From a virus: 41,149 bases of DNA. This document shows positions 2,609 to 39,662 of the stretch, one piece after another (the first letter of the stretch is position 1; each line of letters opens with the position of its first letter). The notes beneath the pieces are model-generated. The model was given only the letters and a program-made list of their open reading frames with translations. It made no database searches and was not told where the DNA came from. A program made the translations under genes and the position numbers. The stretch is from UHGV virus genome UHGV-0455966, one strand, 5' to 3'.

Positions 2609-3447
2609 GGATTCACCTCCTGCGGCGGTTCTGGTAGCGGCATCCAGAACAAGGCGTTCCCTAACCACGATAAAGTGCCGTCGCTCAACTCCACGTATTC
2701 CCCTTGTACCTGTCCTGCCATATACTCGCCGTGCTTTGAATAAATTAAAATCCAATCATCTTGAGGGGGCATTCGCTCACTACAGCTTATCCAACCATCC
2801 GGAGTTACCGGAGAGTTGCCTGCCAGTCTACGCAAAACAGCCTTAACAGCCTCAATACGGTCATCATCGTAACTTTCCGCCGTATCTATGCGGTCGAGCA
2901 TGATGATTGCGTTATCAATATCAGGATTGCCGGTCCACTCATTACCGCGATTGGATTCGGCAGCCTGGTTGCCGCGTACTGGTTGATTGTCGGCTTTACC
3001 CAGTCTGTCGTCGCTGCATGAATGCCCTTCCAGCCAGGCCAATGCTTGTCGCATGAAATACGCAATATGTTTGCCGTGGTAATCGTCTTCATCGATGTGA
3101 AAAGCGATACTACGAATGTATTCAATTGCGTTTTCAATGGCCTCTAACGCTATCGGCGCTGGCGGAGTGGTATATAGTTTTCGACATTTGTATATCCAAC
3201 CGGCATGGTCAGGCGTGTCTGTAAAACGCAAATCGTCTTCGTAGCACTCACGACTACGTTCTTTCCATTCCGTCCACGGAACACCGCTATTCCAGGTGGG
3301 GCGAGTGCAGGACTGATACAGAACAGGCTCTGCTTCCAGTGATGCCAGCGCAATTCGTGCCAGTTCCATTTGTTCGCCACGGGTAAGCCCGTTATCAAGC
3401 GGATTTTTAATGAATAATTCGATACGTTCTTTGGTAATAGTGGTCAT
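2605..3447 (-). CDS. hypothetical protein with DUF551-like C-terminal domain
   Basis: C-terminal ...LSWLGNALFWMPLPEPP matches the WMPLPxPP signature recalled for DUF551 prophage proteins. Confidence 0.55.
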   Translation of the reverse strand: MTTITKERIELFIKNPLDNGLTRGEQMELARIALASLEAEPVLYQSCTRPTWNSGVPWTEWKERSRECYEDDLRFTDTPDHAGWIYKCRKLYTTPPAPIALEAIENAIEYIRSIAFHIDEDDYHGKHIAYFMRQALAWLEGHSCSDDRLGKADNQPVRGNQAAESNRGNEWTGNPDIDNAIIMLDRIDTAESYDDDRIEAVKAVLRRLAGNSPVTPDGWISCSERMPPQDDWILIYSKHGEYMAGQVQGEYVELSDGTLSWLGNALFWMPLPEPPQEVNP

Positions 3448-7917: not shown

Positions 7918-8502
7918 ATGAAAAGTATCCAGGACGTCCGCAGGCAAAATCTCAACGACTTGATCGACCGTGAATTCAATGGTGTTCAGACGCGGATGGC
8001 AGAAAAACTTGGAACTCAGGCAAATCTGGTAAACCGCTGGGCTCTTGGCAAGAAGGTTATCGGCGACCAGGTTGCACGAAAAATTGAAGCTGCCGCCAAT
8101 AAACCCCGTAACTGGCTTGATATTGATCGCTCGCTTTCTCAGGAGGGTTTTCAGCCTGTCGGCCCGAGTGATATAGGTCAGCTGGCGGCTCACAACCTGG
8201 AACGCTGGATGAGCGAAAGCCGCGACCTTTCAACGCAGGGAAAACTACACCGCGCATCCGGCGTCGCCCAGGTGACAATCAGCCGCCTGTTAAACAATGA
8301 GGTCAGCGTTTCCATTTCCACCCTGGAGAATGTTGCATCCGCATTCGGGCGTCACGGCTATGAATTACTGATTCACCCGCACGACCCTGCGACCATCAAC
8401 TATGATCGCTCGCGCTACGCATTGTTACCCGAAACCGAGAAAGCAAAGATCGAAAGTTACATTGAATTTGTCATCAACCAGAACGAAAAAAACAAACAAT
8501 AA
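7918..8502 (+). CDS. prophage repressor with two HTH domains, no S24 peptidase motif
   Basis: HTH 1 QTRMAEKLGTQANLVNRWALGKK, HTH 2 LHRASGVAQVTISRLLNNEVSVSISTLENVASAFG; no GDSM/Ser-Lys dyad region; divergent from Cro-like gene. Confidence 0.7.
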   Translation: MKSIQDVRRQNLNDLIDREFNGVQTRMAEKLGTQANLVNRWALGKKVIGDQVARKIEAAANKPRNWLDIDRSLSQEGFQPVGPSDIGQLAAHNLERWMSESRDLSTQGKLHRASGVAQVTISRLLNNEVSVSISTLENVASAFGRHGYELLIHPHDPATINYDRSRYALLPETEKAKIESYIEFVINQNEKNKQ

Positions 8503-18596: not shown

Positions 18597-18700
18597 GTTA
18601 AATCTCCAGATAGTCGCAGCACCCGTTGCGCCGCATATCTGGTTATTCTATTACCTGGAAAACCACATATGGATAGAAAGGCTGTAAATACGAATAGATA

Positions 18701-18715
18701 TTACCTTTCAGGTAA
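18701..18715. promoter_or_regulatory. palindrome TTACC-tttca-GGTAA
   Basis: Perfect 15-mer, identical to the site at 39249-39263; AACCACATA box ~32 bp upstream. Confidence 0.6.
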
Positions 18716-18752
18716 TTTGCAAAACGTGCTGGATAGCAAACAAATTATTTGC

Positions 18753-18772
18753 TACTGTATAAATATACAGTT
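18753..18772 (+). promoter_or_regulatory. LexA (SOS) box over the -10 region of the small antirepressor-like gene
   Basis: TACTGTATAAATATACAGTT = CTGT-N8-ACAG, matching the E. coli LexA consensus TACTGTATATATATACAGTA at 18 of 20 positions; 20 bp upstream of ATG 18792. Confidence 0.7.
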
Positions 18773-18791
18773 ATTGCATGGAGAAGATAAG

Positions 18792-19049
18792 ATGCAGCAG
18801 TATCACTATCCACTGGAAGACGGATTTACCGAAAGGATTCACACGCCGGGAGGCGTCAGGTCACTGGTGGAGGGATCGCACTTGATGAAATTACTCCGGG
18901 ATCTCGATAAGGATGGATTTAATGTCGATGGCCCACTTGCCGAACTGACTGCACTGATTAACTACGTCACCAGCTCACAGATGTCTATGCAGGATCTGCA
19001 AACACATCTCGACTATTGTGCCGAACAATTACGAAAACAAACCCGGTAA
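18792..19049 (+). CDS. small antirepressor-like protein (SOS-controlled candidate)
   Basis: GGAGAAG RBS; C-terminal LMKLLRDLDKDGFNVDGPLAELTALINYV...LQTHLDY matches the C-terminus of the BRO-N antirepressor at 20435-21130. Confidence 0.55.
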   Translation: MQQYHYPLEDGFTERIHTPGGVRSLVEGSHLMKLLRDLDKDGFNVDGPLAELTALINYVTSSQMSMQDLQTHLDYCAEQLRKQTR

Positions 19050-19073: not shown

Positions 19074-19580
19074 TTAACAGTCGTAAAATTCCGGGTCCCA
19101 CAAACTTGCATCGCGCGGCATGGATTCTAAATTTTTCAGCCGCAAAATTCTGTCACACTCGACAAGAAGTTTTTGTTTTTGTTCGTCAATTTCTACTTTT
19201 TTGTGTGCTGGCTCATCCCAGTAATCCAGAAGAAACGCATGTCGCTCAGACGTTACAAGATAAATCACATACACATCACTGGTTGGTATTTTTTTATGCT
19301 TGTTGGTGGTCTTGTCTTTCTTCCCGGATGCCCAGTTTTTCCAGCATTGTTCCGTACCGCTCTCACCAAACTTGTCAGTATAGTTTCCGATGTTTACGTG
19401 AACGTGGCGTATGTGATATTCCAGCATCTCTTTCGGTGGATCCCGAAACAGAGTGTCCTTTCCGAAATCCTTATGATGACCGTAGCGCCAGTGATCTATG
19501 AACGCGTTTTTGATAGGTATTAGCTCAGGGTCCTTCCCAAAAATTCCAGGGTGAACCAACCCCTGGAATTTATTCAGCAT
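19074..19580 (-). CDS. hypothetical basic protein, toxin-like candidate
   Basis: His-rich HIRHVHVN motif and Lys-rich centre; second gene of a two-gene cassette overlapping the upstream gene by 11 nt. Confidence 0.45.
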   Translation of the reverse strand: MLNKFQGLVHPGIFGKDPELIPIKNAFIDHWRYGHHKDFGKDTLFRDPPKEMLEYHIRHVHVNIGNYTDKFGESGTEQCWKNWASGKKDKTTNKHKKIPTSDVYVIYLVTSERHAFLLDYWDEPAHKKVEIDEQKQKLLVECDRILRLKNLESMPRDASLWDPEFYDC

Positions 19581-19989
19581 CGTCGTAGAGCTCCTGAGCC
19601 ATATCTTCGGCAGTGCGTGCAAACATCCTGCGCGAGATTGCATGAGATTTCTCGACGGACATCTTTGGGACCTCATGCATAACATTTTTGGGAGTTGTGT
19701 AATAGCCTATTACAATTTTCACACCTGACTTATGATTAATATCAGCATAATATACTTCTTGTTCAGACGTTTCACGACGAACATAATCTGCCAGTTTTCC
19801 ACATTTAAATTCCCCTCCCTGATGTTTTAAAATCTCCTCAACTGCACTATTTTCAGTGAAATACCGAATAAGAAATTTCTGTCCAGACTCTTCAGCATGA
19901 GGTATAACAGTATTATTGGAAGCCCGAACAATGGCCTTACTCAATATTTCATGGTCTTTATTTTTTTCTGATTTCCTCAAATGCTGCAT
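19570..19989 (-). CDS. hypothetical protein, first gene of the cassette (antitoxin-like candidate)
   Basis: ATG at 19989 with GAGAG RBS; acidic C-terminal tail AEDMAQELYDDAE. Confidence 0.4.
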   Translation of the reverse strand: MQHLRKSEKNKDHEILSKAIVRASNNTVIPHAEESGQKFLIRYFTENSAVEEILKHQGGEFKCGKLADYVRRETSEQEVYYADINHKSGVKIVIGYYTTPKNVMHEVPKMSVEKSHAISRRMFARTAEDMAQELYDDAE

Positions 19990-20150
19990 TACTGTAGCTC
20001 TCTTCGTGTTCACGGGCACCCCCAACTACCTCTAGGGTAAACATTCTATCGAAAGTATACGCATACTGGCAAAAAAATAGGCAGGTATTTTCTGAAATGG
20101 GATCAATCAAACCACATAGGGTTGAAATAACGTGAGTTATGCATTTATTA

Positions 20151-20165
20151 TTACCTTTGCGGTAA
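20151..20165. promoter_or_regulatory. palindrome TTACC-tttgc-GGTAA
   Basis: Perfect 15-mer; AACCACATA box at 20110-20118. Confidence 0.6.
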
Positions 20166-20169
20166 ATTT

Positions 20170-20277
20170 ACATCGCACTCCTCTTGTGCCATAGTAATCG
20201 GGCACTGGAAAAATCCAGTGCCGGGATTGGCGTCCCGGATTACTAAAAGGCGCATTCACCGCGCAAGCGGTTTTTTT
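20170..20277 (+). ncRNA. candidate small structured RNA / structured leader upstream of antirepressor
   Basis: Y-shaped fold: outer stem AGTAATC/GATTACT (20193-20244) enclosing hairpins GGCACTGG/CCAGTGCC and GGGA/TCCC; then CCGC-gcaa-GCGG + T7 terminator (20257-20277). Confidence 0.35.
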
Positions 20278-20434
20278 ATGCGTATAGCACGGCCACATTC
20301 GTATTATGGTGGGCTGTGTGGGGGCACCGAAAGGTGCGCCGGGTCCTTTTAGCCGGTTACGCCAACCCTGCACAGTTCACCACCAACCGATTGGCGTCGG
20401 TAGTGGTGATTAACCAGACTAAAAGGTAACCACT

Positions 20435-21130
20435 ATGACAGCTACAAAAAGCACGTCCATTTTTTCTTTCGAATCCCAAGCCGATATACGGGTAATCGTC
20501 ATTAATGGTGAGCCATGGTTTATCGCTTCAGATGTTTGTCGGGCTATAGGCATAGCAAATCATCGAGATGCTGTTCGAAAACTTGATGATGATGAGAAGG
20601 GCGTCGCTTCAACCGACACCCCTGGCGGTGAGCAAGAATCGATCATCATCTCCGAGTCAGGCCTCTACACACTGATCCTCCGCTGCCGCGACGCAGTGAC
20701 ACCAGGCACTATCCCCTACCGCTTTCGTAAATGGGTTACAGGTGAGGTTCTTCCTCAGATCCGCCGCACCGGAAGTTACATTAAAAACTCGCTCCCGCAG
20801 GAAGAACGCATAAAGATGGTTGCCGACCAGGTAGCCAACGCCACAGCATCAGCAGTGATGCAGGCAATGAAGATAGAGAACAAAACCTACAGTGCCCCAC
20901 TGAAGCCCGGCTACCGCAGCCTGATTCATTCGCCGTCTGGTGTTCTCGGCCTGACGGAGAACTCACTGCTGATGAATCTGCTGAACCAGTTACAGGAAGA
21001 CGGGCACGACGTATCGGGCGCGGCGGCGGAGCTGACCACCATGTTCTGCTACATCGTCGGTGTGAGCAAATGCCTGCGTGATATCCAGACCCACGCGGAG
21101 TACATCAACGACAAGGCAGGGTTCTTCTGA
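20435..21130 (+). CDS. BRO-N-domain antirepressor
   Basis: N-terminal FESQADIRVIVINGEPWFIASDVCRAIGIANHRDAVRKL typical of Bro-N/Ant proteins; C-terminal domain shared with 18792-19049. Confidence 0.7.
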   Translation: MTATKSTSIFSFESQADIRVIVINGEPWFIASDVCRAIGIANHRDAVRKLDDDEKGVASTDTPGGEQESIIISESGLYTLILRCRDAVTPGTIPYRFRKWVTGEVLPQIRRTGSYIKNSLPQEERIKMVADQVANATASAVMQAMKIENKTYSAPLKPGYRSLIHSPSGVLGLTENSLLMNLLNQLQEDGHDVSGAAAELTTMFCYIVGVSKCLRDIQTHAEYINDKAGFF

Positions 21131-21201
21131 CGGGCGGCGGCACAGGGATGTGCCTTTAAATAATTCTGTACGATTGCAGACTGGGGGTGAATAGCGTACT
21201 A

Positions 21202-21216
21202 TTACCTTAAAGGTAA
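21202..21216. promoter_or_regulatory. palindrome TTACC-ttaaa-GGTAA
   Basis: Perfect 15-mer about 27 bp upstream of ATG 21243. Confidence 0.6.
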
Positions 21217-21242
21217 ACCATGTGTTTACATGAGGAGGAGAT

Positions 21243-21452
21243 ATGGGATTTTGGTTCGCTCGTACAAAAACGAGGGATAATGCACCCAGCCCTCAGGCAA
21301 AAAATGCAGAAGTTCCGGCGTCAGCGCAGGTTAACAAGCGTGGTGGTGTGTATATCTCATCACAGCAAATTTCTGAGCTTCCTGAGGTTAAGGAGATGCG
21401 TCGTCTCGCTGCTGCAATCGTTAAACAGGATCTTGCCACTGTAAGGAAATAG
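21243..21452 (+). CDS. hypothetical small protein, first gene of accessory operon
   Basis: GAGGAGGAG RBS; normal GC; TAG stop overlaps GTG start of next gene. Confidence 0.5.
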   Translation: MGFWFARTKTRDNAPSPQAKNAEVPASAQVNKRGGVYISSQQISELPEVKEMRRLAAAIVKQDLATVRK

Positions 21453-22315
21453 TGTTGTTAGCTCTTCTAATTATCCCCATTCTGGTTAGTGGTTATATTA
21501 TGATAACCGCTAACCAGTATCATTATTTCCGTTTATACCGACATGAAGGCCAGCTTCTTTATATGAAAGTTGCTGCATTAGGTACATATTGCCTTGTTGC
21601 TTCGGTAATAATTGCCGCATTTATAAAATATAAATATCCTGATTTTCACCTAGTTCACGATATGGTGGAAACTTTTAATGTAACGTCAAAACCAGAAACA
21701 GATAGAATTTACATGTGGCTACTTCTTCTGTCAGTCACATCAATTTGCTTCTCTTTGTGTTATGTATCTTTTGTTTGGCTAAAAGATCTTCTTTTAGGTT
21801 GTTTTTATAAACGTGATATTTATGACAAAATATCAGAGGCAATGAAAGCTAGGGTATTGCGAAAAACGTACTCCCAGGGTTCTTTAGATTTGCTATTGCT
21901 TGATGCAATCGAATCAGATCCTAAGAAACCAATGTTAATTACTTTATCATCAAATAAAGTATACGTTGGAATAATAAATGGTTCTGGTGAGCCAACGGAA
22001 AATCAAGGGCCACACCAACACATATCTTTTGTTCCTTTAATGTCAGGGTACAGAAACAAAGAAAATTTATCTGTTACATTTACAAACGCTTACCCAGGTG
22101 AAATCCAAATTAAGCGCAGTGCTGCGATAAAAGGGATAAGCAAAAAGAAAGTTCAAGGTCTAGAAATTATGGTATCTATAGACGAAATAAGTCATATATC
22201 ATGGTTTGACTTTGAAGTATATAAGGCAACAAATAACAAAGTAGAAACAAAGGGTCATGTTGTTAATGTGACCAAAAATGGTCGCAACATATACTACAGA
22301 AGTGGCAGAAAATAA
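21452..22315 (+). CDS. AT-rich membrane protein (3 N-terminal TM helices + soluble C-domain), unknown function
   Basis: GTG start with AAGGA RBS; hydrophobic segments LLALLIIPILVSGYIMI, VAALGTYCLVASVIIAAFI, MWLLLLSVTSICFSLCYVSFVWL; sharp drop in GC at gene start. Confidence 0.6.
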   Translation: MLLALLIIPILVSGYIMITANQYHYFRLYRHEGQLLYMKVAALGTYCLVASVIIAAFIKYKYPDFHLVHDMVETFNVTSKPETDRIYMWLLLLSVTSICFSLCYVSFVWLKDLLLGCFYKRDIYDKISEAMKARVLRKTYSQGSLDLLLLDAIESDPKKPMLITLSSNKVYVGIINGSGEPTENQGPHQHISFVPLMSGYRNKENLSVTFTNAYPGEIQIKRSAAIKGISKKKVQGLEIMVSIDEISHISWFDFEVYKATNNKVETKGHVVNVTKNGRNIYYRSGRK

Positions 22316-22331
22316 ATTTTACGCAGTTTAG

Positions 22332-22844
22332 GTGGCTTATATGGATAATACTATCTTAGGCGCATTGATAGGTGCAGTTATTGCTATAGTTTCCACTTAT
22401 ATAAATGCAGGACAAGGATACAAAAACAGCATAAGATTAGAGCGACAAAAAATATTAAGGGATAAACGCGAGCAATTATTTATAAATTGTATACTTACTA
22501 AAAAAGTCATAGATTCAAGCACAATTACCATTCTCAATTTCGTAAAAAATGCCAGATACCACTCTGATAGTAAATTTGACGTATCAAGAGCGAATCCGTT
22601 GCAAACGATGGAAATGCTAATAAACATATACCTTCCTGAGTATAAAAAAGACTTACAAGAACTCAATAATGCGTATCAAGAATTTCACAAATACTACTCT
22701 CAATATACATGTGCACATACCTTCAAAAATATGCCTGATAATGAGAAGTCGAGGTTTATTGAGGAGGCTGATTTTTATGCAAAAAAGATATATGGCAAAC
22801 TTAATGATATTAAGGACAAGATATCATTAAACTCAATAGTATAA
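22332..22844 (+). CDS. AT-rich single-pass membrane protein, unknown function
   Basis: N-terminal TM ILGALIGAVIAIVSTYI then helical soluble domain; 16 bp after upstream gene. Confidence 0.6.
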   Translation: MAYMDNTILGALIGAVIAIVSTYINAGQGYKNSIRLERQKILRDKREQLFINCILTKKVIDSSTITILNFVKNARYHSDSKFDVSRANPLQTMEMLINIYLPEYKKDLQELNNAYQEFHKYYSQYTCAHTFKNMPDNEKSRFIEEADFYAKKIYGKLNDIKDKISLNSIV

Positions 22845-35265: not shown

Positions 35266-36258
35266 TTACACCACGCGGGCTTCTGTTTCCAGAAGCGCAT
35301 CAGTTTCACGGATTGGTACACCACGGAATGACGTCCACCACTCGCCTTCAGTCTCTTTTACGCTAATCGCCAGAGATGTTTTCTCCAGAGACTGCAGATC
35401 AAGAGCCTGGCCTACAGTGCGGTTCATGTAGAACACCGGGCGACCCATGCCACGGTTTGGAATGCGATGCAGTGCTTTAACCATCAACTTCGCAATATTT
35501 GCGGCAGAGGAAGGTTCTGAAAGATTGCTGACATCGATGTTTGCAATGCGAACAACATAACGCCAGTCACGCAGAGCAAGTCCGTTATCCCATTTGTAAT
35601 GGGTGCGATAGCCTTCGTACTTGCCGCCATTAGCATCTTCCAGTGTCACCTGGCCTTTATCTTCCATCTGGATGCCAGCCTTCTGCCCTTTCGGGAAGAT
35701 GCCATGCACGGTGTTTTCGCCCCACACTACTAACCAGATTGAGGTGTTATCTGTACCCGTGCCACCAGCATCAATGATGTTCTGAGCATTACCCGCAGAC
35801 AGGCTGGAATAGCGGGAGGACAGTCCCATAAACTGCTGAGGGTTAACGCTGGAATCACCATAAAACAGTGTCTGCGCCATCTGCTGATTCATCGCTTCAA
35901 TAAATGCGCGGTCTTCAGACAGGCGGAATTCGGCGGTATTACCGTTCAGATCAGCCAGTGACTTATCGACTTCAGCATAGGTTTCCAGCATTCCAACGGA
36001 ATCGGTGACCTGCACTGTGGTTGATTTGCTTGGCTGTACGCCATAGTTCAGCAAACGCCAGGTGGCTGAAGGTAAACCAGAACGAATGGTGGTTCGGTGT
36101 CCGGTAGGAAGGTTCCCTTCGACAAAAGGCATATCCTGAAGGATCGGGTTAGTTTGACCGAGAAGCTCGATAATCTTATCGACTTTCCCGTTTGGATCGA
36201 CGCGCTTACCCCAGTCAGCCAGCGTTAGCGCAGTTAAGCCTTTAACAGCCATTGTCAT
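35266..36258 (-). CDS. major capsid protein
   Basis: 330 aa, follows scaffold gene, strong codon bias; T7 gp10-like size and position. Confidence 0.7.
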   Translation of the reverse strand: MTMAVKGLTALTLADWGKRVDPNGKVDKIIELLGQTNPILQDMPFVEGNLPTGHRTTIRSGLPSATWRLLNYGVQPSKSTTVQVTDSVGMLETYAEVDKSLADLNGNTAEFRLSEDRAFIEAMNQQMAQTLFYGDSSVNPQQFMGLSSRYSSLSAGNAQNIIDAGGTGTDNTSIWLVVWGENTVHGIFPKGQKAGIQMEDKGQVTLEDANGGKYEGYRTHYKWDNGLALRDWRYVVRIANIDVSNLSEPSSAANIAKLMVKALHRIPNRGMGRPVFYMNRTVGQALDLQSLEKTSLAISVKETEGEWWTSFRGVPIRETDALLETEARVV

Positions 36259-36968: not shown

Positions 36969-37261
36969 TCCTGTTCACTGGCCTCTTTGGCCATCTTCAA
37001 ATACTGTTCAGGGCAATGCGCCATAACGCGCTGAAACAGTTCCAGCGCCAGATTGCGTTGCCCCTCATTAAATGCCATTGCCATAGCGTCCATCGGTGAG
37101 ATAGCGGAAAACACCCGGCCTTTCTCCAGCACAGACCAGACAACGCGACGCCCCTGTTCACTGCTCATGACAAAGCGAATGTCATCAATTTCACGCTGTG
37201 CCATGTCACGTTGCTTACTGGCGTTTTCTTCTTTCAGTTGATCATCTTCGTAATCTGTCAT
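36965..37261 (-). CDS. hypothetical small protein
   Basis: 98-aa ORF coupled between portal and scaffold genes. Confidence 0.4.
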   Translation of the reverse strand: MTDYEDDQLKEENASKQRDMAQREIDDIRFVMSSEQGRRVVWSVLEKGRVFSAISPMDAMAMAFNEGQRNLALELFQRVMAHCPEQYLKMAKEASEQE

Positions 37262-38937
37262 TGTGATTGCCCACCCTGACCACTAACTGCATTCGCCATA
37301 GCTGACAAAACACTCGGATCCGAAGTTTTAGCTTCGCTTAGCGTCTTGGCACCCTGTGCCGCCGCCATCCCCATCGCCATCATTTGTTGCTGCTGTTGTT
37401 GCTGTGCCCGTTGCTGGCGAGCCTGCTCAACCTGTTCCTGCGGAACAATGACGGTTGGAGACACTCCGGACATATCAGCGAATGCATCGATCGCCTGATC
37501 AACGTTGAGTTTGTCGAGAGCTTCTGGTTTCGCTTGCGCAAGTTGACCAATGAAGTTAACCGTGGACGCCAGACTGGACAGGCCGATAGACTTCTGCGCC
37601 TGAGCCATGACAGAAATGTATTCGACCTTCAGGGGCATACCTTCCATCGCGTCAGGCGGTGGCGGCAGCATGTTTTTACGCACCATCATCGAGAAAGCGC
37701 GGTCAATGAGAGGATTAAGACATTCGTCGTTCAGACGCTCCAGAACCGGCCCCAACATCAGAAGTTTTTCTTCTTTCATTTCGATCACCGCTTCAACAGG
37801 CATCGAGCGGGTATTGATGTTCTGCAACATCATGAACAGATCGACAAAGTAGGCGCTGTTAATGATTTGGCGGGTGTCCTGAATGTCTGCTACCAGATCT
37901 GCTGTACTGGGGTTAACCAGATAAGCAGGCCTGAAACCATCCTGACCAGTAATCTGATCGATATACGTGATGTCGCCAGGAAGAAGGGAGGCGCGCTGAT
38001 TCTTGAGGGAAGTCGGAGCAACCATCGGCGGATTGGTGGCTTTATCAATCAACTGCGACTTGCGCTTCTGGAGAAGCTGCAATGCCTTAACAGGTCCAAG
38101 CGCCAGCATACCCGGGCATGATGATCCATAAACATCTTCGCCGTTAACTTCCCAGCGCGGAGCCATAATTGGAAACTCATCGAATCCGGACTCACGCAAC
38201 AACTTGTCGTTATCGCCACCAACCTCGTAATAAACCGATTTGAATGGCTTGTTCTTGCTATCCAGCTTCGATGTATCGCGGTCAATGTTCGGGTAAACCG
38301 AATGCATCACTTCAATCCACTTCTCGTAGGTGCCGCTTTCCCACATGCTTTTTACGGATTCGCTGACGTTATTTAGCCCGAACTCCCGAACAAGCTGACG
38401 AACAGTCATAGAGAACTTGCGAAAACAGGTGTCCACACTGCCACGAGGTGAGTTAGCCAGGTAGTAACTGCCTATCGGGAATGGCATTGTGCGAATGATG
38501 TCCTCGTCATCCTCCAGCACCGCCATTGCACCAGTGCTGTATGTGCCGAGGCTTCCGTATAACTGCGGAAGAGACTGGTAGAGATTCGACTTATTGAACA
38601 TATCGTTCATGCGGTTCTGCACCGCCTCAAGCCACAACTTAACAGGGCCATAATCCATCATTTCAGGATCTGGCGTAGCCAGGCGAAACCACGGACGCGC
38701 GGGGCTTGTGATGCCTGACATCATGCCGCTGGCGAGAGTGCGCGCCGCCATAGTCCCGGTCGAATCAATAATGCGTGTATTGCGTCGATCGTTACGGTTG
38801 ACCTCAGAAGTAAGAAAGCGGGAACCACGCGGGTTGATGTAATCACTCAACTCGCGCCAGTGCGGCTCGAACGACTGACGCTCGCTTTCAAGTTGTGCGA
38901 ACTGTTTGTTCAATCGCTCTTTAGTTGTTTCCGCCAT
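37258..38937 (-). CDS. portal protein (T7 gp8-like head-tail connector)
   Basis: 559 aa; Gln/Ala/Met-rich C-terminal tail QQRAQQQQQQQMMAMGMAAAQGAK like T7 gp8 C-terminus; first large gene after terL. Confidence 0.7.
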   Translation of the reverse strand: MAETTKERLNKQFAQLESERQSFEPHWRELSDYINPRGSRFLTSEVNRNDRRNTRIIDSTGTMAARTLASGMMSGITSPARPWFRLATPDPEMMDYGPVKLWLEAVQNRMNDMFNKSNLYQSLPQLYGSLGTYSTGAMAVLEDDEDIIRTMPFPIGSYYLANSPRGSVDTCFRKFSMTVRQLVREFGLNNVSESVKSMWESGTYEKWIEVMHSVYPNIDRDTSKLDSKNKPFKSVYYEVGGDNDKLLRESGFDEFPIMAPRWEVNGEDVYGSSCPGMLALGPVKALQLLQKRKSQLIDKATNPPMVAPTSLKNQRASLLPGDITYIDQITGQDGFRPAYLVNPSTADLVADIQDTRQIINSAYFVDLFMMLQNINTRSMPVEAVIEMKEEKLLMLGPVLERLNDECLNPLIDRAFSMMVRKNMLPPPPDAMEGMPLKVEYISVMAQAQKSIGLSSLASTVNFIGQLAQAKPEALDKLNVDQAIDAFADMSGVSPTVIVPQEQVEQARQQRAQQQQQQQMMAMGMAAAQGAKTLSEAKTSDPSVLSAMANAVSGQGGQSQ

Positions 38938-39585: not shown

Positions 39586-39662
39586 GTGGCATTAGCTCAG
39601 TTGGACAGAGCAACCGCCTTCTAAGCGGTTGGTCGCAGGTTCGAATCCTGCATGCCGCGCCA
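39586..39662 (+). tRNA. tRNA-Arg (anticodon UCU)
   Basis: Hand-folded cloverleaf: acceptor GTGGCAT/ATGCCGC, D-stem GCTC/GAGC, anticodon stem ACCGC/GCGGT with loop CUUCUAA, T-arm GCAGG-TTCGAAT-CCTGC, discriminator G, encoded CCA. Confidence 0.85.

What the first reader, a model, noticed from the sequence alone, without database searches (positions are those of the whole stretch)
20166..20434. GC-rich, hairpin-dense non-coding region upstream of the antirepressor: candidate regulatory RNA
About 270 bp without a credible ORF, in sharp compositional contrast to neighbours. It contains a Y-shaped fold (20193-20244), a terminator with a T7 run (20257-20277), a GAAA-tetraloop hairpin and a nested hairpin (CACCAC...GTGGTG) immediately before the ant RBS. 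This resembles antisense or attenuator control of antirepressors in other phages (P22 sar, P1 c4), but sequence homology to those was not seen.
Basis: seen in the sequence. Interest (0 to 1): 0.5.

Follow-up and report, generated by a model that had tools for sequence, protein, structure and literature searches.

The report
Known IsrK–C4 antirepressor RNA switch
The GC-rich gap in front of the phage's antirepressor-like gene holds two already described phage regulatory RNAs (IsrK/c4-a1b1 and the C4 antisense RNA of phage P1-type immunity), laid out so that C4 can pair with the gene's ribosome-binding site; it is real and well conserved, but ordinary.

Summary
In detail: 20166-20434 is non-coding, strongly structured (z = -5.97) and sits directly upstream of a Bro-N "antirepressor" gene. 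It is not new. Rfam places two curated families here, in tandem on the + strand: isrK (20202-20277, 76.7 bits, threshold 50; it also matches c4-a1b1) and C4 antisense RNA (20302-20387, 77.7 bits, threshold 45). The layout is that of the phage P1 immI operon. A promoter is followed by an a1/b1 leader with a leaky terminator, then C4 with its a'/b' sites, then a2/b2, with b2 (CUAAAAGG) lying on the ant Shine-Dalgarno sequence. The C4 loop b' (CCUUUUAG) and junction a' (ACGCCAA) are perfectly complementary to both target sets. In 13 reference loci and 82 of 109 unique viral loci, a'/a1/a2 and b'/b1/b2 change together. The C4 fold shows 13 compensatory pairs. The Gifsy-1 isrK-orf45-anrP locus has the same build, and its published compensatory mutations map onto a1:a'. 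Differences from the models are minor: there is no icd or overlapping orf45, and b2 lies on ant's own RBS. An identical copy occurs in E. coli IHE3034, APEC O18 and others. Verdict: already known, low interest.

The parts
20167..20195 (+). Sigma-70 promoter of the module: -35 TTTACA (20167-20172), 17-nt spacer with TG, -10 CATAGT (20190-20195). The inferred start is about G20202.
   Evidence: Found by the promoter scan. It aligns column for column with the annotated P1 promoter P1c4/P51b (-35 TTGACC, -10 TATAGT) and with the promoter of the experimentally mapped Gifsy-1 IsrK. The start site is inferred by homology, not measured.
20202..20278 (+). IsrK / c4-a1b1 leader RNA (about 77 nt). It consists of hairpin 1 (20202-20221), hairpin 2 (20222-20237), a single-stranded linker, and a terminator hairpin 20258-20271 followed by a U7 run.
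   Evidence: Rfam isrK RF01394, 76.7 bits (threshold 50), full length 1-77. It also matches c4-a1b1 RF03163 at 41.7 bits (threshold 46.7), 20189-20241. Hairpin 1 covaries. The terminator was found by the scan.
20227..20233 (+). a1 site, UUGGCGU, in the loop of IsrK hairpin 2. It is complementary to C4 a'.
   Evidence: Exact 7-nt complement. It occupies the same position as the a1 site annotated in P1. It has the same sequence as Gifsy-1 a1, where the pairs G28-C162 and G31-C159 were proven by compensatory mutation (PMC4825925, mapped).
20243..20250 (+). b1 site, CUAAAAGG, in the IsrK linker. It is complementary to C4 b'.
   Evidence: Exact 8-nt complement. This 8-mer occurs only here and at b2 in the whole 41-kb window.
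20302..20387 (+). C4 antisense RNA (Rfam hit). The predicted mature form is 20308-20384 (77 nt, 5'-GGU..., with a tRNA-like ACC(A) 3' tail). It has a 17-bp closing stem (20307-20323 with 20366-20382), hairpin 1 (20324-20337, GAAA loop) and hairpin 2 (20338-20357).
   Evidence: Rfam C4 RF01695, 77.7 bits (threshold 45), model positions 1-87. On 13 homologues 98.9% of cells are paired, 13 pairs have changes on both sides, and 0 of 500 shuffles reach this. The mature ends are inferred from the P1 annotation (c4 3344-3420 within Rfam hit 3338-3423) and from the GGW RNase P site described in PMC5320573.
20345..20352 (+). b' recognition sequence, CCUUUUAG, in the loop of C4 hairpin 2.
   Evidence: The loop sequence differs in almost every homologue, and b1 and b2 change with it.
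20359..20365 (+). a' recognition sequence, ACGCCAA, in the single-stranded junction of C4.
   Evidence: There are 7 different a' sequences among 13 loci, each matched by its own a1 and a2.
20391..20397 (+). a2 target, UUGGCGU, a few nt 3' of C4. It is presented in a small hairpin, cGAU-UGGC-GUCg.
   Evidence: Exact complement of a'. The placement relative to C4 is as in P1 (c4 ends at 3420, a2 is 3424-3430). The small hairpin has one covarying pair (CG:4, UA:4) in 10 leaders.
20419..20426 (+). b2 target, CUAAAAGG. It overlaps the ant Shine-Dalgarno sequence (AAAGG), 8 nt before the AUG at 20435.
   Evidence: Exact complement of b'. In all 13 loci b2 lies on or next to the SD or start codon of the next gene.
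20392..20444 (+). Structured ant leader. The conserved GUGGUG box (20403-20408) pairs with CCACUAU (the AU of the start codon), and b2/SD lies in the apical loop.
   Evidence: MFE -16.9 kcal/mol. The helix is kept in 10 related leaders with only G-C/G-U changes and no compensatory pair. Support is weak; this part is predicted only.
20306..20413 (+). 35-aa ORF starting at the conserved C4 AUG. It is the positional counterpart of Gifsy-1 orf45 and is probably not a conserved protein.
   Evidence: In homologues the ORF from this AUG is 14-15 aa (P1, APSE-3, Klebsiella phage), 33-45 aa, or fused in frame to the next gene. Here it stops 22 nt before the ant AUG, so there is no stop/start overlap as in Gifsy-1.
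20435..21130 (+). ant: the regulated gene, 231 aa, with an N-terminal Bro-N domain. It is annotated 'putative anti-repressor protein' in phage TL-2011b.
   Evidence: Pfam Bro-N, 2.3e-21. TL-2011b annotation. It has no similarity to Gifsy-1 AnrP. Antirepressor activity itself has not been tested.

Best explanation
This is an immI-type immunity module of the phage P1/P7 kind, in the form found in Gifsy-1 and many lambdoid and P22-like prophages.

Proposed mechanism:
1. A constitutive sigma-70 promoter (20167-20195) starts transcription at about 20202.
2. Most transcripts stop at the weak 5-bp terminator (20258-20278). They give the roughly 77-nt IsrK/c4-a1b1 RNA, which displays the sites a1 and b1.
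3. Some transcripts read through into C4 and ant.
4. C4 (about 20308-20384) is cut out of the read-through transcript. RNase P makes the 5' cut at the tRNA-like closing stem, and the 3' end is ...ACC(A).
5. C4 accumulates as a stable RNA. Its hairpin-2 loop b' (CCUUUUAG) and junction a' (ACGCCAA) pair in trans with a2 (20391-20397) and b2 (20419-20426) of ant leaders.
6. Because b2 is the Shine-Dalgarno sequence, the ribosome cannot load and no Ant is made. The prophage's primary repressor is therefore not antagonised. An incoming phage with the same a/b code is also silenced.
7. IsrK carries an identical a1/b1 pair, so it competes for C4. When IsrK is in excess it relieves the block, as shown for Gifsy-1.

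Status of each step. Shown here: family membership, fold, complementarities, their co-variation, and the position of b2 on the RBS. Inferred from homologues: start site, terminator read-through, RNase P processing, direction of regulation, and the antirepressor activity of the Bro-N protein.
For: - Full-length Rfam hits well above the curated thresholds: isrK 76.7 bits (threshold 50) and C4 77.7 bits (threshold 45), plus c4-a1b1 at 41.7 bits.
- Perfect complementarities b':b1, b':b2 (8 nt) and a':a1, a':a2 (7 nt), in the same order and spacing as the sites annotated in P1.
- CTAAAAGG occurs in the 41-kb window only at b1 and b2, and its complement only at b'.
- Three-way co-variation. 12 distinct b' and 7 distinct a' sequences in 13 loci are each matched by their own flanks. 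For b' against the downstream flank, the mean longest match is 8.3 nt within a locus and 4.3 nt between loci. 82 of 109 unique IMG/VR loci show both three-way matches, with more than 20 b' and more than 10 a' variants.
- C4 fold: 98.9% of cells paired and 13 compensatory pairs.
- The promoter, both hairpins and the terminator align with P1 P51b and with Gifsy-1 IsrK.
- The Gifsy-1 type locus has the same isrK-C4-gene order. Its experimentally validated pairs G28-C162 and G31-C159 are a1:a' pairs, with the same sequence as here (PMC4825925).
- P1 c4 is processed by RNase P at a GGW site to 77 +/- 1 nt, and its b' site occludes the RBS (summarised in PMC5320573 and PMC12197685). The window has GGU at the homologous position and ACCA after the stem.
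- The APSE phage records annotate the same isrK + C4 + Bro-N arrangement (PMC7313666).
Against: - Nothing here shows that any of these RNAs is made or processed in this phage.
- ViennaRNA cofold gives no net gain for C4 with either partner (ddG about 0). It cannot model loop-loop contacts, so it neither supports nor refutes the pairing.
- In P1 the direct target is icd, with ant coupled to it. In Gifsy-1, translation of orf45 is needed. Neither coupling device is present here in the same form, so the quantitative logic may differ.
- The regulated protein is called an antirepressor only by annotation and by its Bro-N domain. It is unrelated to Gifsy-1 AnrP.
- The Gifsy-1 study explains activation by a cis structure switch rather than by titration of free C4 (PMC4825925).
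Confidence: 0.85

Rival explanations
1. Gifsy-1-type logic dominates. The read-through transcript is translationally silent because of a cis fold (a1:a' helix, 'structure A'). Short IsrK acts in trans as an activator that refolds the mRNA. Translation of the small ORF that starts at the C4 AUG is needed to open the ant RBS. C4 is then mainly an mRNA structural element, not a free antisense repressor.
For: The window has the same isrK-C4-gene order as Gifsy-1 and the same a1/a' sequences. In Gifsy-1, IsrK in trans raised anrP translation more than 100-fold, and the cis pairs G28-C162 and G31-C159 were proven by compensatory mutation (PMC4825925). A 35-aa ORF starts at the homologous AUG. The IsrK x C4-segment duplex is predicted to be stronger than C4 x ant leader (-26.1 against -21.7 kcal/mol).
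Against: Here the ORF ends 22 nt before the ant AUG instead of overlapping it. In P1, APSE-3 and the Klebsiella phage the ORF is cut to 14-15 aa by stops inside the b' loop, so coupling is not a conserved feature. The MFE fold of the whole window transcript keeps IsrK, C4 and the leader as separate domains, with no long a1:a' helix. The strict conservation of a2/b2 on the RBS in all loci is not explained by this model alone. A stable processed species from this region (STnc1160) exists in Salmonella (PMC4825925). This model is not exclusive of the best explanation.
Confidence: 0.35
2. P4-type logic. The C4-like RNA (the counterpart of P4 CI) pairs with the upstream and downstream sites (the counterparts of seqA/seqC) on the nascent transcript and causes premature transcription termination. 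Control is then transcriptional rather than translational.
For: Published work treats the Rfam C4 and isrK profiles as detectors of P4 CI and seqA relatives (PMC10111431). The Gifsy-1 authors raise the same possibility for STnc1160 and the IsrK terminator (PMC4825925). The a1/b1 sites lie immediately 5' of an intrinsic terminator.
Against: b2 lies exactly on the Shine-Dalgarno sequence in the window and in every homologue, which is what a translational block predicts. No terminator-like site lies between C4 and ant. In Gifsy-1, constitutive STnc1160 did not reduce the IsrK effect (PMC4825925). From general knowledge, in P1 loss of icd translation leads secondarily to Rho-dependent polarity, so both effects could coexist.
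Confidence: 0.12
3. The region is a decayed or mis-called coding sequence (for example the 78-aa minus-strand ORF 20137-20373 or the 35-37-aa plus-strand ORFs), and the hairpins are incidental.
For: Several public records draw CDSs or 'similar to hypothetical protein' features across it. Long stop-free runs exist on both strands in all homologues.
Against: Covariance-model matches to two RNA families. Compensatory base-pair changes. Three-way co-variation of short sites that makes no sense for a protein. The reading frame from the conserved AUG ends at very different places. Stop-free runs are expected in GC-rich sequence and are not informative.
Confidence: 0.02
4. P22 sar-type cis-antisense control: a small RNA transcribed from the opposite strand across the ant RBS.
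For: The genomic position next to the tailspike gene resembles P22 immI (a comparison from general knowledge; tailspike ORF).
Against: No Rfam match other than isrK, C4, c4-a1b1 and one chance-level hit in 20050-20550 at E <= 1. No minus-strand promoter-like site lies near the ant RBS; the only minus-strand sites are at 20072-20043 and 19775-19747. All conserved structure is on the + strand.
Confidence: 0.01

Closest known systems
immI operon of phages P1 and P7 (P51b promoter, a1/b1, c4 antisense RNA, a2/b2, icd, ant1/2)
   Same: Same Rfam family (P1 c4 scores 68.8 bits, the window 77.7). Same order promoter-a1-b1-C4(b',a')-a2-b2-gene on one strand. Similar spacings: start to start, a1 to b1 is 14 nt in P1 and 16 nt here; a2 to b2 is 29 nt and 28 nt. 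In both, a2 begins within a few nt of the C4 3' end and b2 lies on an RBS. The predicted mature RNA is 77 nt and begins GGU.
   Different: There is no icd gene: b2 covers the RBS of ant itself. The a'/b' sequences differ, giving a different immunity specificity. The leader has a stronger terminator and scores as isrK, whereas P1's leader scores only as c4-a1b1. The regulated protein is a Bro-N protein, not P1 Ant. No C1 operator was identified.
Gifsy-1 isrK-orf45(STnc1160)-anrP-isrJ locus of Salmonella (Hershko-Shalev et al. 2016, PMC4825925)
   Same: isrK is followed directly by a C4-family element and then by an antirepressor-like gene. The a1/a' sequences are identical. There is a terminator with expected read-through, and an AUG at the 5' end of C4 opens a short ORF.
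   Different: Gifsy-1 orf45 (45 aa) overlaps the anrP start (AUGA) and couples translation. Here the ORF is 35 aa and ends 22 nt upstream. The b' sequence differs (CGGUGAU there, CCUUUUAG here). AnrP is an ORF6N protein with no similarity to the window's Bro-N protein. There is no isrJ downstream, and no antQ next to it in the window.
APSE phages of Hamiltonella defensa (isrK + C4 upstream of a BRO-N gene; PMC7313666, record LR794150)
   Same: Same three-part arrangement with a Bro-N cargo gene. The record already annotates the a' and b' regions. Three-way complementarity was confirmed here.
   Different: Different a/b code (AUGCGAA / CCUGUUUAG) and a different host clade. About 70% nucleotide identity.
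Phage P4 immunity (CI RNA with seqA and seqC)
   Same: A processed small RNA pairs with repeated sites upstream and downstream of itself in the same transcript. The literature regards the C4 and isrK profiles as detecting CI and seqA relatives (PMC10111431).
   Different: From the literature, P4 acts through transcription termination. Here the downstream site lies on an RBS, and no terminator follows C4.
P22 immI sar RNA
   Same: It controls an antirepressor gene located beside the tailspike gene.
   Different: sar is a cis-encoded antisense RNA from the opposite strand. There is no sequence or structure match here.

Membership tests
C4 antisense RNA (Rfam RF01695; P1/P7 c4) | Covariance-model score at or above the curated gathering threshold, full length | tested here: met
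   77.7 bits against 45, model positions 1-87 of 87, E = 1.1e-13
C4 antisense RNA (Rfam RF01695; P1/P7 c4) | Long closing stem enclosing two hairpins and a single-stranded junction, maintained by compensatory changes | tested here: met
   27 pairs, 98.9% of cells paired in 13 sequences, 13 pairs changed on both sides, 0 of 500 shuffles reach this; slid controls give 35-50% paired
C4 antisense RNA (Rfam RF01695; P1/P7 c4) | Two recognition sequences (b' in the hairpin-2 loop, a' in the junction) complementary to a2/b2 downstream in the same transcript, with b2 on the RBS of the next gene | tested here: met
   b' 20345-20352 pairs with b2 20419-20426 (the SD, 8 nt before the AUG). a' 20359-20365 pairs with a2 20391-20397. 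They co-vary across loci.
C4 antisense RNA (Rfam RF01695; P1/P7 c4) | A second copy of the targets (a1/b1) upstream of C4 | tested here: met
   a1 is 20227-20233 and b1 is 20243-20250. The positions are homologous to those annotated in P1.
C4 antisense RNA (Rfam RF01695; P1/P7 c4) | Processed from a longer transcript to about 77 nt by RNase P at a GGW site | not testable with these tools
   The sequence is compatible: GGU at 20308, a tRNA-like stem followed by ACCA (20382-20385), and a predicted 77-nt product. The processing itself cannot be shown. The P1 facts are taken from PMC5320573.
C4 antisense RNA (Rfam RF01695; P1/P7 c4) | Represses antirepressor synthesis and confers immunity specificity | not testable with these tools
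   Inferred only.
isrK / c4-a1b1 leader RNA (Rfam RF01394, RF03163) | Covariance-model score at or above the threshold | tested here: met
   isrK 76.7 bits against 50, full length. c4-a1b1 41.7 bits against 46.7, which is below the threshold, with E = 3e-9 in the local search.
isrK / c4-a1b1 leader RNA (Rfam RF01394, RF03163) | Own sigma-70 promoter, two 5' hairpins with a1 in the second loop, and an intrinsic terminator giving a ~77-nt RNA | tested here: met
   Promoter and terminator scans. Alignment with P1 P51b and with Gifsy-1. Hairpin 1 has 6 covarying pairs and hairpin 2 is 95% paired. Transcript ends are inferred.
isrK / c4-a1b1 leader RNA (Rfam RF01394, RF03163) | Immediately followed by a C4-family RNA and an antirepressor-type gene on the same strand | tested here: met
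   Window, 10 phage loci and Gifsy-1.
isrK / c4-a1b1 leader RNA (Rfam RF01394, RF03163) | Hfq binding and trans-activation of the read-through mRNA | not testable with these tools
   Known only for Salmonella Gifsy-1 (PMC4825925).
Gifsy-1 isrK-orf45-anrP mechanism | Small ORF from the C4 AUG whose stop overlaps the start of the antirepressor gene (translational coupling) | tested here: not met
   The ORF 20306-20413 ends 22 nt before AUG 20435. In Gifsy-1 the stop overlaps the start (AUGA). ORF length is not conserved across loci.
P22 sar antisense RNA | Small RNA encoded on the strand opposite the ant RBS; match to the sar family | tested here: not met
   No such match at E <= 1 in 20050-20550. 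No minus-strand promoter-like site near the ant RBS.
Antirepressor (functional class of the regulated gene) | Protein that inactivates the prophage's primary repressor | not testable with these tools
   Bro-N domain only and a 'putative anti-repressor' label in TL-2011b. A cI-like HTH protein is encoded at 7918-8502, but no interaction can be tested.

The most novel reading that the evidence does not exclude
IsrK may be a dedicated decoy (anti-antisense RNA) for C4. The fraction of transcripts that stop at the IsrK terminator would then set the ratio of decoy to repressor and make the module a self-contained RNA-only switch. Here it works without the icd/orf45 coupling ORF. The a' x b' combinations would form a combinatorial address code that decides which co-resident or incoming prophages cross-silence each other's antirepressors. 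Related elements occur in 935 of 5,426 complete E. coli genomes, with up to 3 places per genome. One viral contig carries three tandem modules with near-identical cargo proteins but three different codes.
Probability: 0.3. Interest if true: 0.4.

Novelty: already known. Interest (0 to 1): 0.12.

Why it matters
For annotation, this fills a blank or mis-annotated stretch. RefSeq shows nothing there in E. coli IHE3034. Several phage records draw protein-coding genes across it.

For biology, it marks the Bro-N gene as the tightly silenced induction or anti-immunity gene of this epsilon15-like prophage. It also gives the prophage's immunity 'address' (a' ACGCCAA, b' CCUUUUAG).

The comparative result is a useful consolidation of scattered literature rather than a discovery. 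The same RNA cassette sits in front of unrelated Bro-N, ORF6N, pRha and Icd genes. Gifsy-1 'orf45' lies on top of a C4-family RNA. The experimentally proven IsrK pairs are the a1:a' contact of the P1 scheme.

Tried and rejected
1. Coding explanation. I translated from the conserved C4 AUG in 13 loci; the ORF lengths are inconsistent. Counting stop-free runs on both strands was uninformative, because GC-rich sequence gives long runs everywhere.
2. RNA cofolding of C4 with IsrK or with the ant leader gave ddG of about 0. I rejected this as a test because cofold cannot represent loop-loop contacts between folded RNAs. Only segment-level duplex energies are quoted.
3. The Y-shaped outer stem (20193-20200 with 20237-20244) was rejected as part of the RNA. 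It overlaps the -10 element and is kept only in the nearest relative.
5. Covariation in the ant leader hairpin: RNAalifold on 10 leaders found the helix conserved but with no compensatory pair. It is reported only as a prediction.
6. Pfam, NCBIfam and PADLOC scans of the flanking ORFs gave no hits apart from Bro-N.
7. Similarity of Ant to Gifsy-1 AnrP: none.
8. Hartmann et al. 1995 (RNase P processing of c4) could not be read. The facts are taken from a later paper that summarises it.
9. The large protein-database, structure-prediction and metagenome tools were not used, because the question was settled by RNA-family and comparative evidence.
Full report
WHAT IS THERE.
The stretch 20166-20434 lies between a divergently oriented pair of minus-strand ORFs and a plus-strand gene (20435-21130) that encodes a 231-aa protein with a Bro-N domain. 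Phage TL-2011b, which is 99.7% identical over this region, annotates that gene as 'putative anti-repressor protein'. GC content rises from 0.35-0.40 upstream to 0.57 in the region, but the ant gene is equally GC-rich. Transcribed from 20202, the region folds far better than shuffled sequence (-105.2 against -78.0 +/- 4.6 kcal/mol, z = -5.97).

IDENTITY.
A scan of the whole window against Rfam at curated thresholds gives three hits:
- isrK (RF01394) at 20202-20277, 76.7 bits (threshold 50);
- C4 antisense RNA (RF01695) at 20302-20387, 77.7 bits (threshold 45);
- a tRNA-Arg far away.
A permissive local scan adds c4-a1b1 (RF03163, 'a1, b1 targets of C4 antisense RNA') at 20189-20241. It scores 41.7 bits, just under its threshold of 46.7, and overlaps isrK. 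Nothing resembling P22 sar appears.

ANATOMY.
- Promoter. A sigma-70 promoter (TTTACA-17-CATAGT with an upstream TG, 20167-20195) aligns with the annotated P1 promoter P1c4/P51b and with the Gifsy-1 isrK promoter. This puts the start at about G20202, the first position of the isrK model.
- IsrK. It has two hairpins (20202-20221 and 20222-20237), a linker, and a 5-bp terminator with a U7 run (20258-20278).
- C4. It has a 17-bp closing stem, a GAAA-loop hairpin, a second hairpin, and an 8-nt single-stranded junction.
- Complementarities. The hairpin-2 loop CCTTTTAG (b', 20345-20352) is the exact complement of CTAAAAGG at 20243-20250 (b1, in the IsrK linker) and at 20419-20426 (b2). The b2 site is the ant Shine-Dalgarno region, 8 nt before the ATG. 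The junction ACGCCAA (a', 20359-20365) is the exact complement of TTGGCGT at 20227-20233 (a1, in the loop of IsrK hairpin 2) and at 20391-20397 (a2).
- Chance. CTAAAAGG occurs nowhere else in the 41-kb window, and its complement occurs only at b'.
- Comparison with P1. This is the a1-b1 / c4 / a2-b2 scheme annotated in the P1 genome record, with nearly the same spacings. My script recovers the annotated P1 sites exactly.

COMPARATIVE TESTS.
Ten further phage loci (APSE-3, a Klebsiella phage, VT2-Sakai, Ayreon, 2H10, phiP27, PhiR49_2, IdasGreatGrand and two Stx phages), together with P1 and Gifsy-1, all carry the leader RNA directly followed by C4 and then a gene. One of the Stx loci has its leader interrupted by IS629.
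- C4 fold. On 13 sequences, 98.9% of cells are paired and 13 of 27 pairs change on both sides. No shuffle of 500 reaches this, and slid controls give 35-50% paired.
- IsrK. Hairpin 1 has six compensatory pairs.
- Recognition sequences. These vary: 12 different b' and 7 different a' sequences in 13 loci. In each locus the upstream and downstream targets vary with them. For b' against the downstream flank, the mean longest complement is 8.3 nt within a locus and 4.3 nt between loci. For a' against the downstream flank it is exactly 7 nt in every locus.
- Wider sample. A pattern scan of IMG/VR gave 109 unique loci. In 82 of them both sites show perfect three-way matches of at least 6 nt, with more than 20 b' and more than 10 a' variants in many combinations.
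This three-way co-variation is strong evidence that the pairings are functional. It also shows that the sites act as specificity determinants, as is known for P1/P7 heteroimmunity (PMC12197685, PMC5320573).

LINK TO GIFSY-1.
In Gifsy-1, Rfam places C4 between isrK and anrP. The ORF that starts at the conserved C4 AUG is exactly 45 aa, and its stop overlaps the anrP start. 'orf45' and the stable species STnc1160 of Hershko-Shalev et al. therefore lie on a C4-family RNA. The compensatory pairs they proved (G28-C162, G31-C159; PMC4825925) map to a1:a'. The window has these same two sequences. That study showed three things: read-through of the IsrK terminator yields a translationally silent mRNA; IsrK in trans activates anrP translation more than 100-fold; and the locus drives prophage induction.

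MOST LIKELY MECHANISM.
See Best explanation for the full steps. C4, processed from read-through transcripts, blocks ribosome loading on ant by pairing a'/b' with a2/b2. IsrK carries the duplicate a1/b1 pair and competes for C4. The mature C4 ends (20308-20384; 77 nt; 5' GGU; stem followed by ACCA) are inferred from the P1 annotation and from the RNase P/GGW description in PMC5320573.

In a simple duplex model the b'-a' segment binds IsrK slightly better than it binds the ant leader (-26.1 against -21.7 kcal/mol). This fits a decoy role but does not prove it.

The ant leader itself is predicted to form a hairpin (20392-20444, -16.9 kcal/mol). A conserved GUGGUG box pairs with the start codon region, and b2/SD lies in the apical loop. 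The helix is conserved in 10 relatives but has no compensatory change.

DIFFERENCES FROM THE MODELS.
- There is no icd gene (P1) and no overlapping orf45 (Gifsy-1). The 35-aa ORF from the C4 AUG stops 22 nt before ant. In relatives it ranges from 14 aa to an in-frame fusion with the next gene.
- The cargo gene differs between loci: Bro-N here and in APSE-3, ORF6N in Gifsy-1 and VT2-Sakai, pRha in phiP27-like phages, and Icd in P1. The window's protein has no similarity to AnrP. The RNA cassette is therefore a portable control unit for the 'Bro network' of phage regulators (compare PMC10111431).

HOW COMMON.
The 281-nt module is 100% identical in E. coli IHE3034, APEC O18 and others. Related sequences occur in 935 of 5,426 complete E. 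coli genomes. RefSeq annotates no RNA there. The APSE-3 record does annotate isrK, C4, a' and b' (PMC7313666).

VERDICT.
The element is a textbook member of known families and is already detectable by standard Rfam annotation. It is already known and of low interest. Its value lies in annotation and in tying the P1, P4 and Gifsy-1 descriptions to one architecture.

Noticed in passing
window 18669-19049 (+): A small ORF (probably the 85-aa form starting at an internal Met) is 42% identical over 74 aa to the C-terminal domain of Ant (residues 150-223; E = 6e-19). It is a stand-alone paralogue of the Ant C-domain. It sits between the tailspike gene and the toxin-like pair, and the same position holds an 85-aa 'hypothetical protein' in TL-2011b and IHE3034. 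Its function is unknown; it could modulate Ant.
   Followed up: partly
window 19074-19580 (-) and 19570-20013 (-): Two overlapping minus-strand ORFs are transcribed divergently from the isrK promoter. In the 99.8%-identical IHE3034 locus, RefSeq names the distal one 'type II toxin-antitoxin system YafO family toxin'. My Pfam, NCBIfam and PADLOC scans found nothing. Low GC (0.35-0.40) suggests a moron cassette.
   Followed up: partly
window 21165-22843 (+): Relative to IHE3034 this segment is replaced. It holds two low-GC (0.32-0.35) ORFs (21452-22315, 287 aa; 22332-22844, 170 aa) with no family hits in Pfam, NCBIfam or PADLOC. It is possibly an accessory or defence cargo downstream of ant.
   Followed up: partly
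L037 9289-11266 (-) (IMGVR_UViG_2671181028_000005); also L081: Three tandem 656-bp repeats, each a complete isrK-C4-pRha-like gene module. The three cargo proteins are nearly identical, but the a/b recognition sequences differ in all three copies. This looks like diversification of the RNA address code. L081 has two copies.
   Followed up: partly
L005 1125-1961, L008 1416-1961, L004 1561-1734, L003 1663-1860 (-), L002 3165-4253 (-): Public phage records draw protein-coding or 'similar to hypothetical protein' features straight across the isrK/C4 RNAs. Examples are the Ayreon 'immunity region' CDS, the N-terminally extended 2H10 'putative antirepressor', and VT2-Sakai orf34. These are likely mis-annotations.
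   Followed up: partly
window 20122-20151 (+): A second promoter-like site (TTGAAA-18-TATTAT, 10 of 12 matches) lies 44 nt upstream of the isrK -10. This recalls the tandem P2c4/P1c4 promoters of P1, which are 40 nt apart and of which the upstream one is repressor-controlled. Homology to TL-2011b begins at about 20145, so a mosaic junction runs through this site.
   Followed up: no
window 7918-8502, 12554-13804, 35266-36258, 37258-38937, 39586-39662: General context: an epsilon15-like temperate phage genome. It has a GP7-type major capsid protein, a portal, a tyrosine integrase, a cI-like HTH_3 protein that is the candidate target of Ant, and a tRNA-Arg(TCT).
   Followed up: partly
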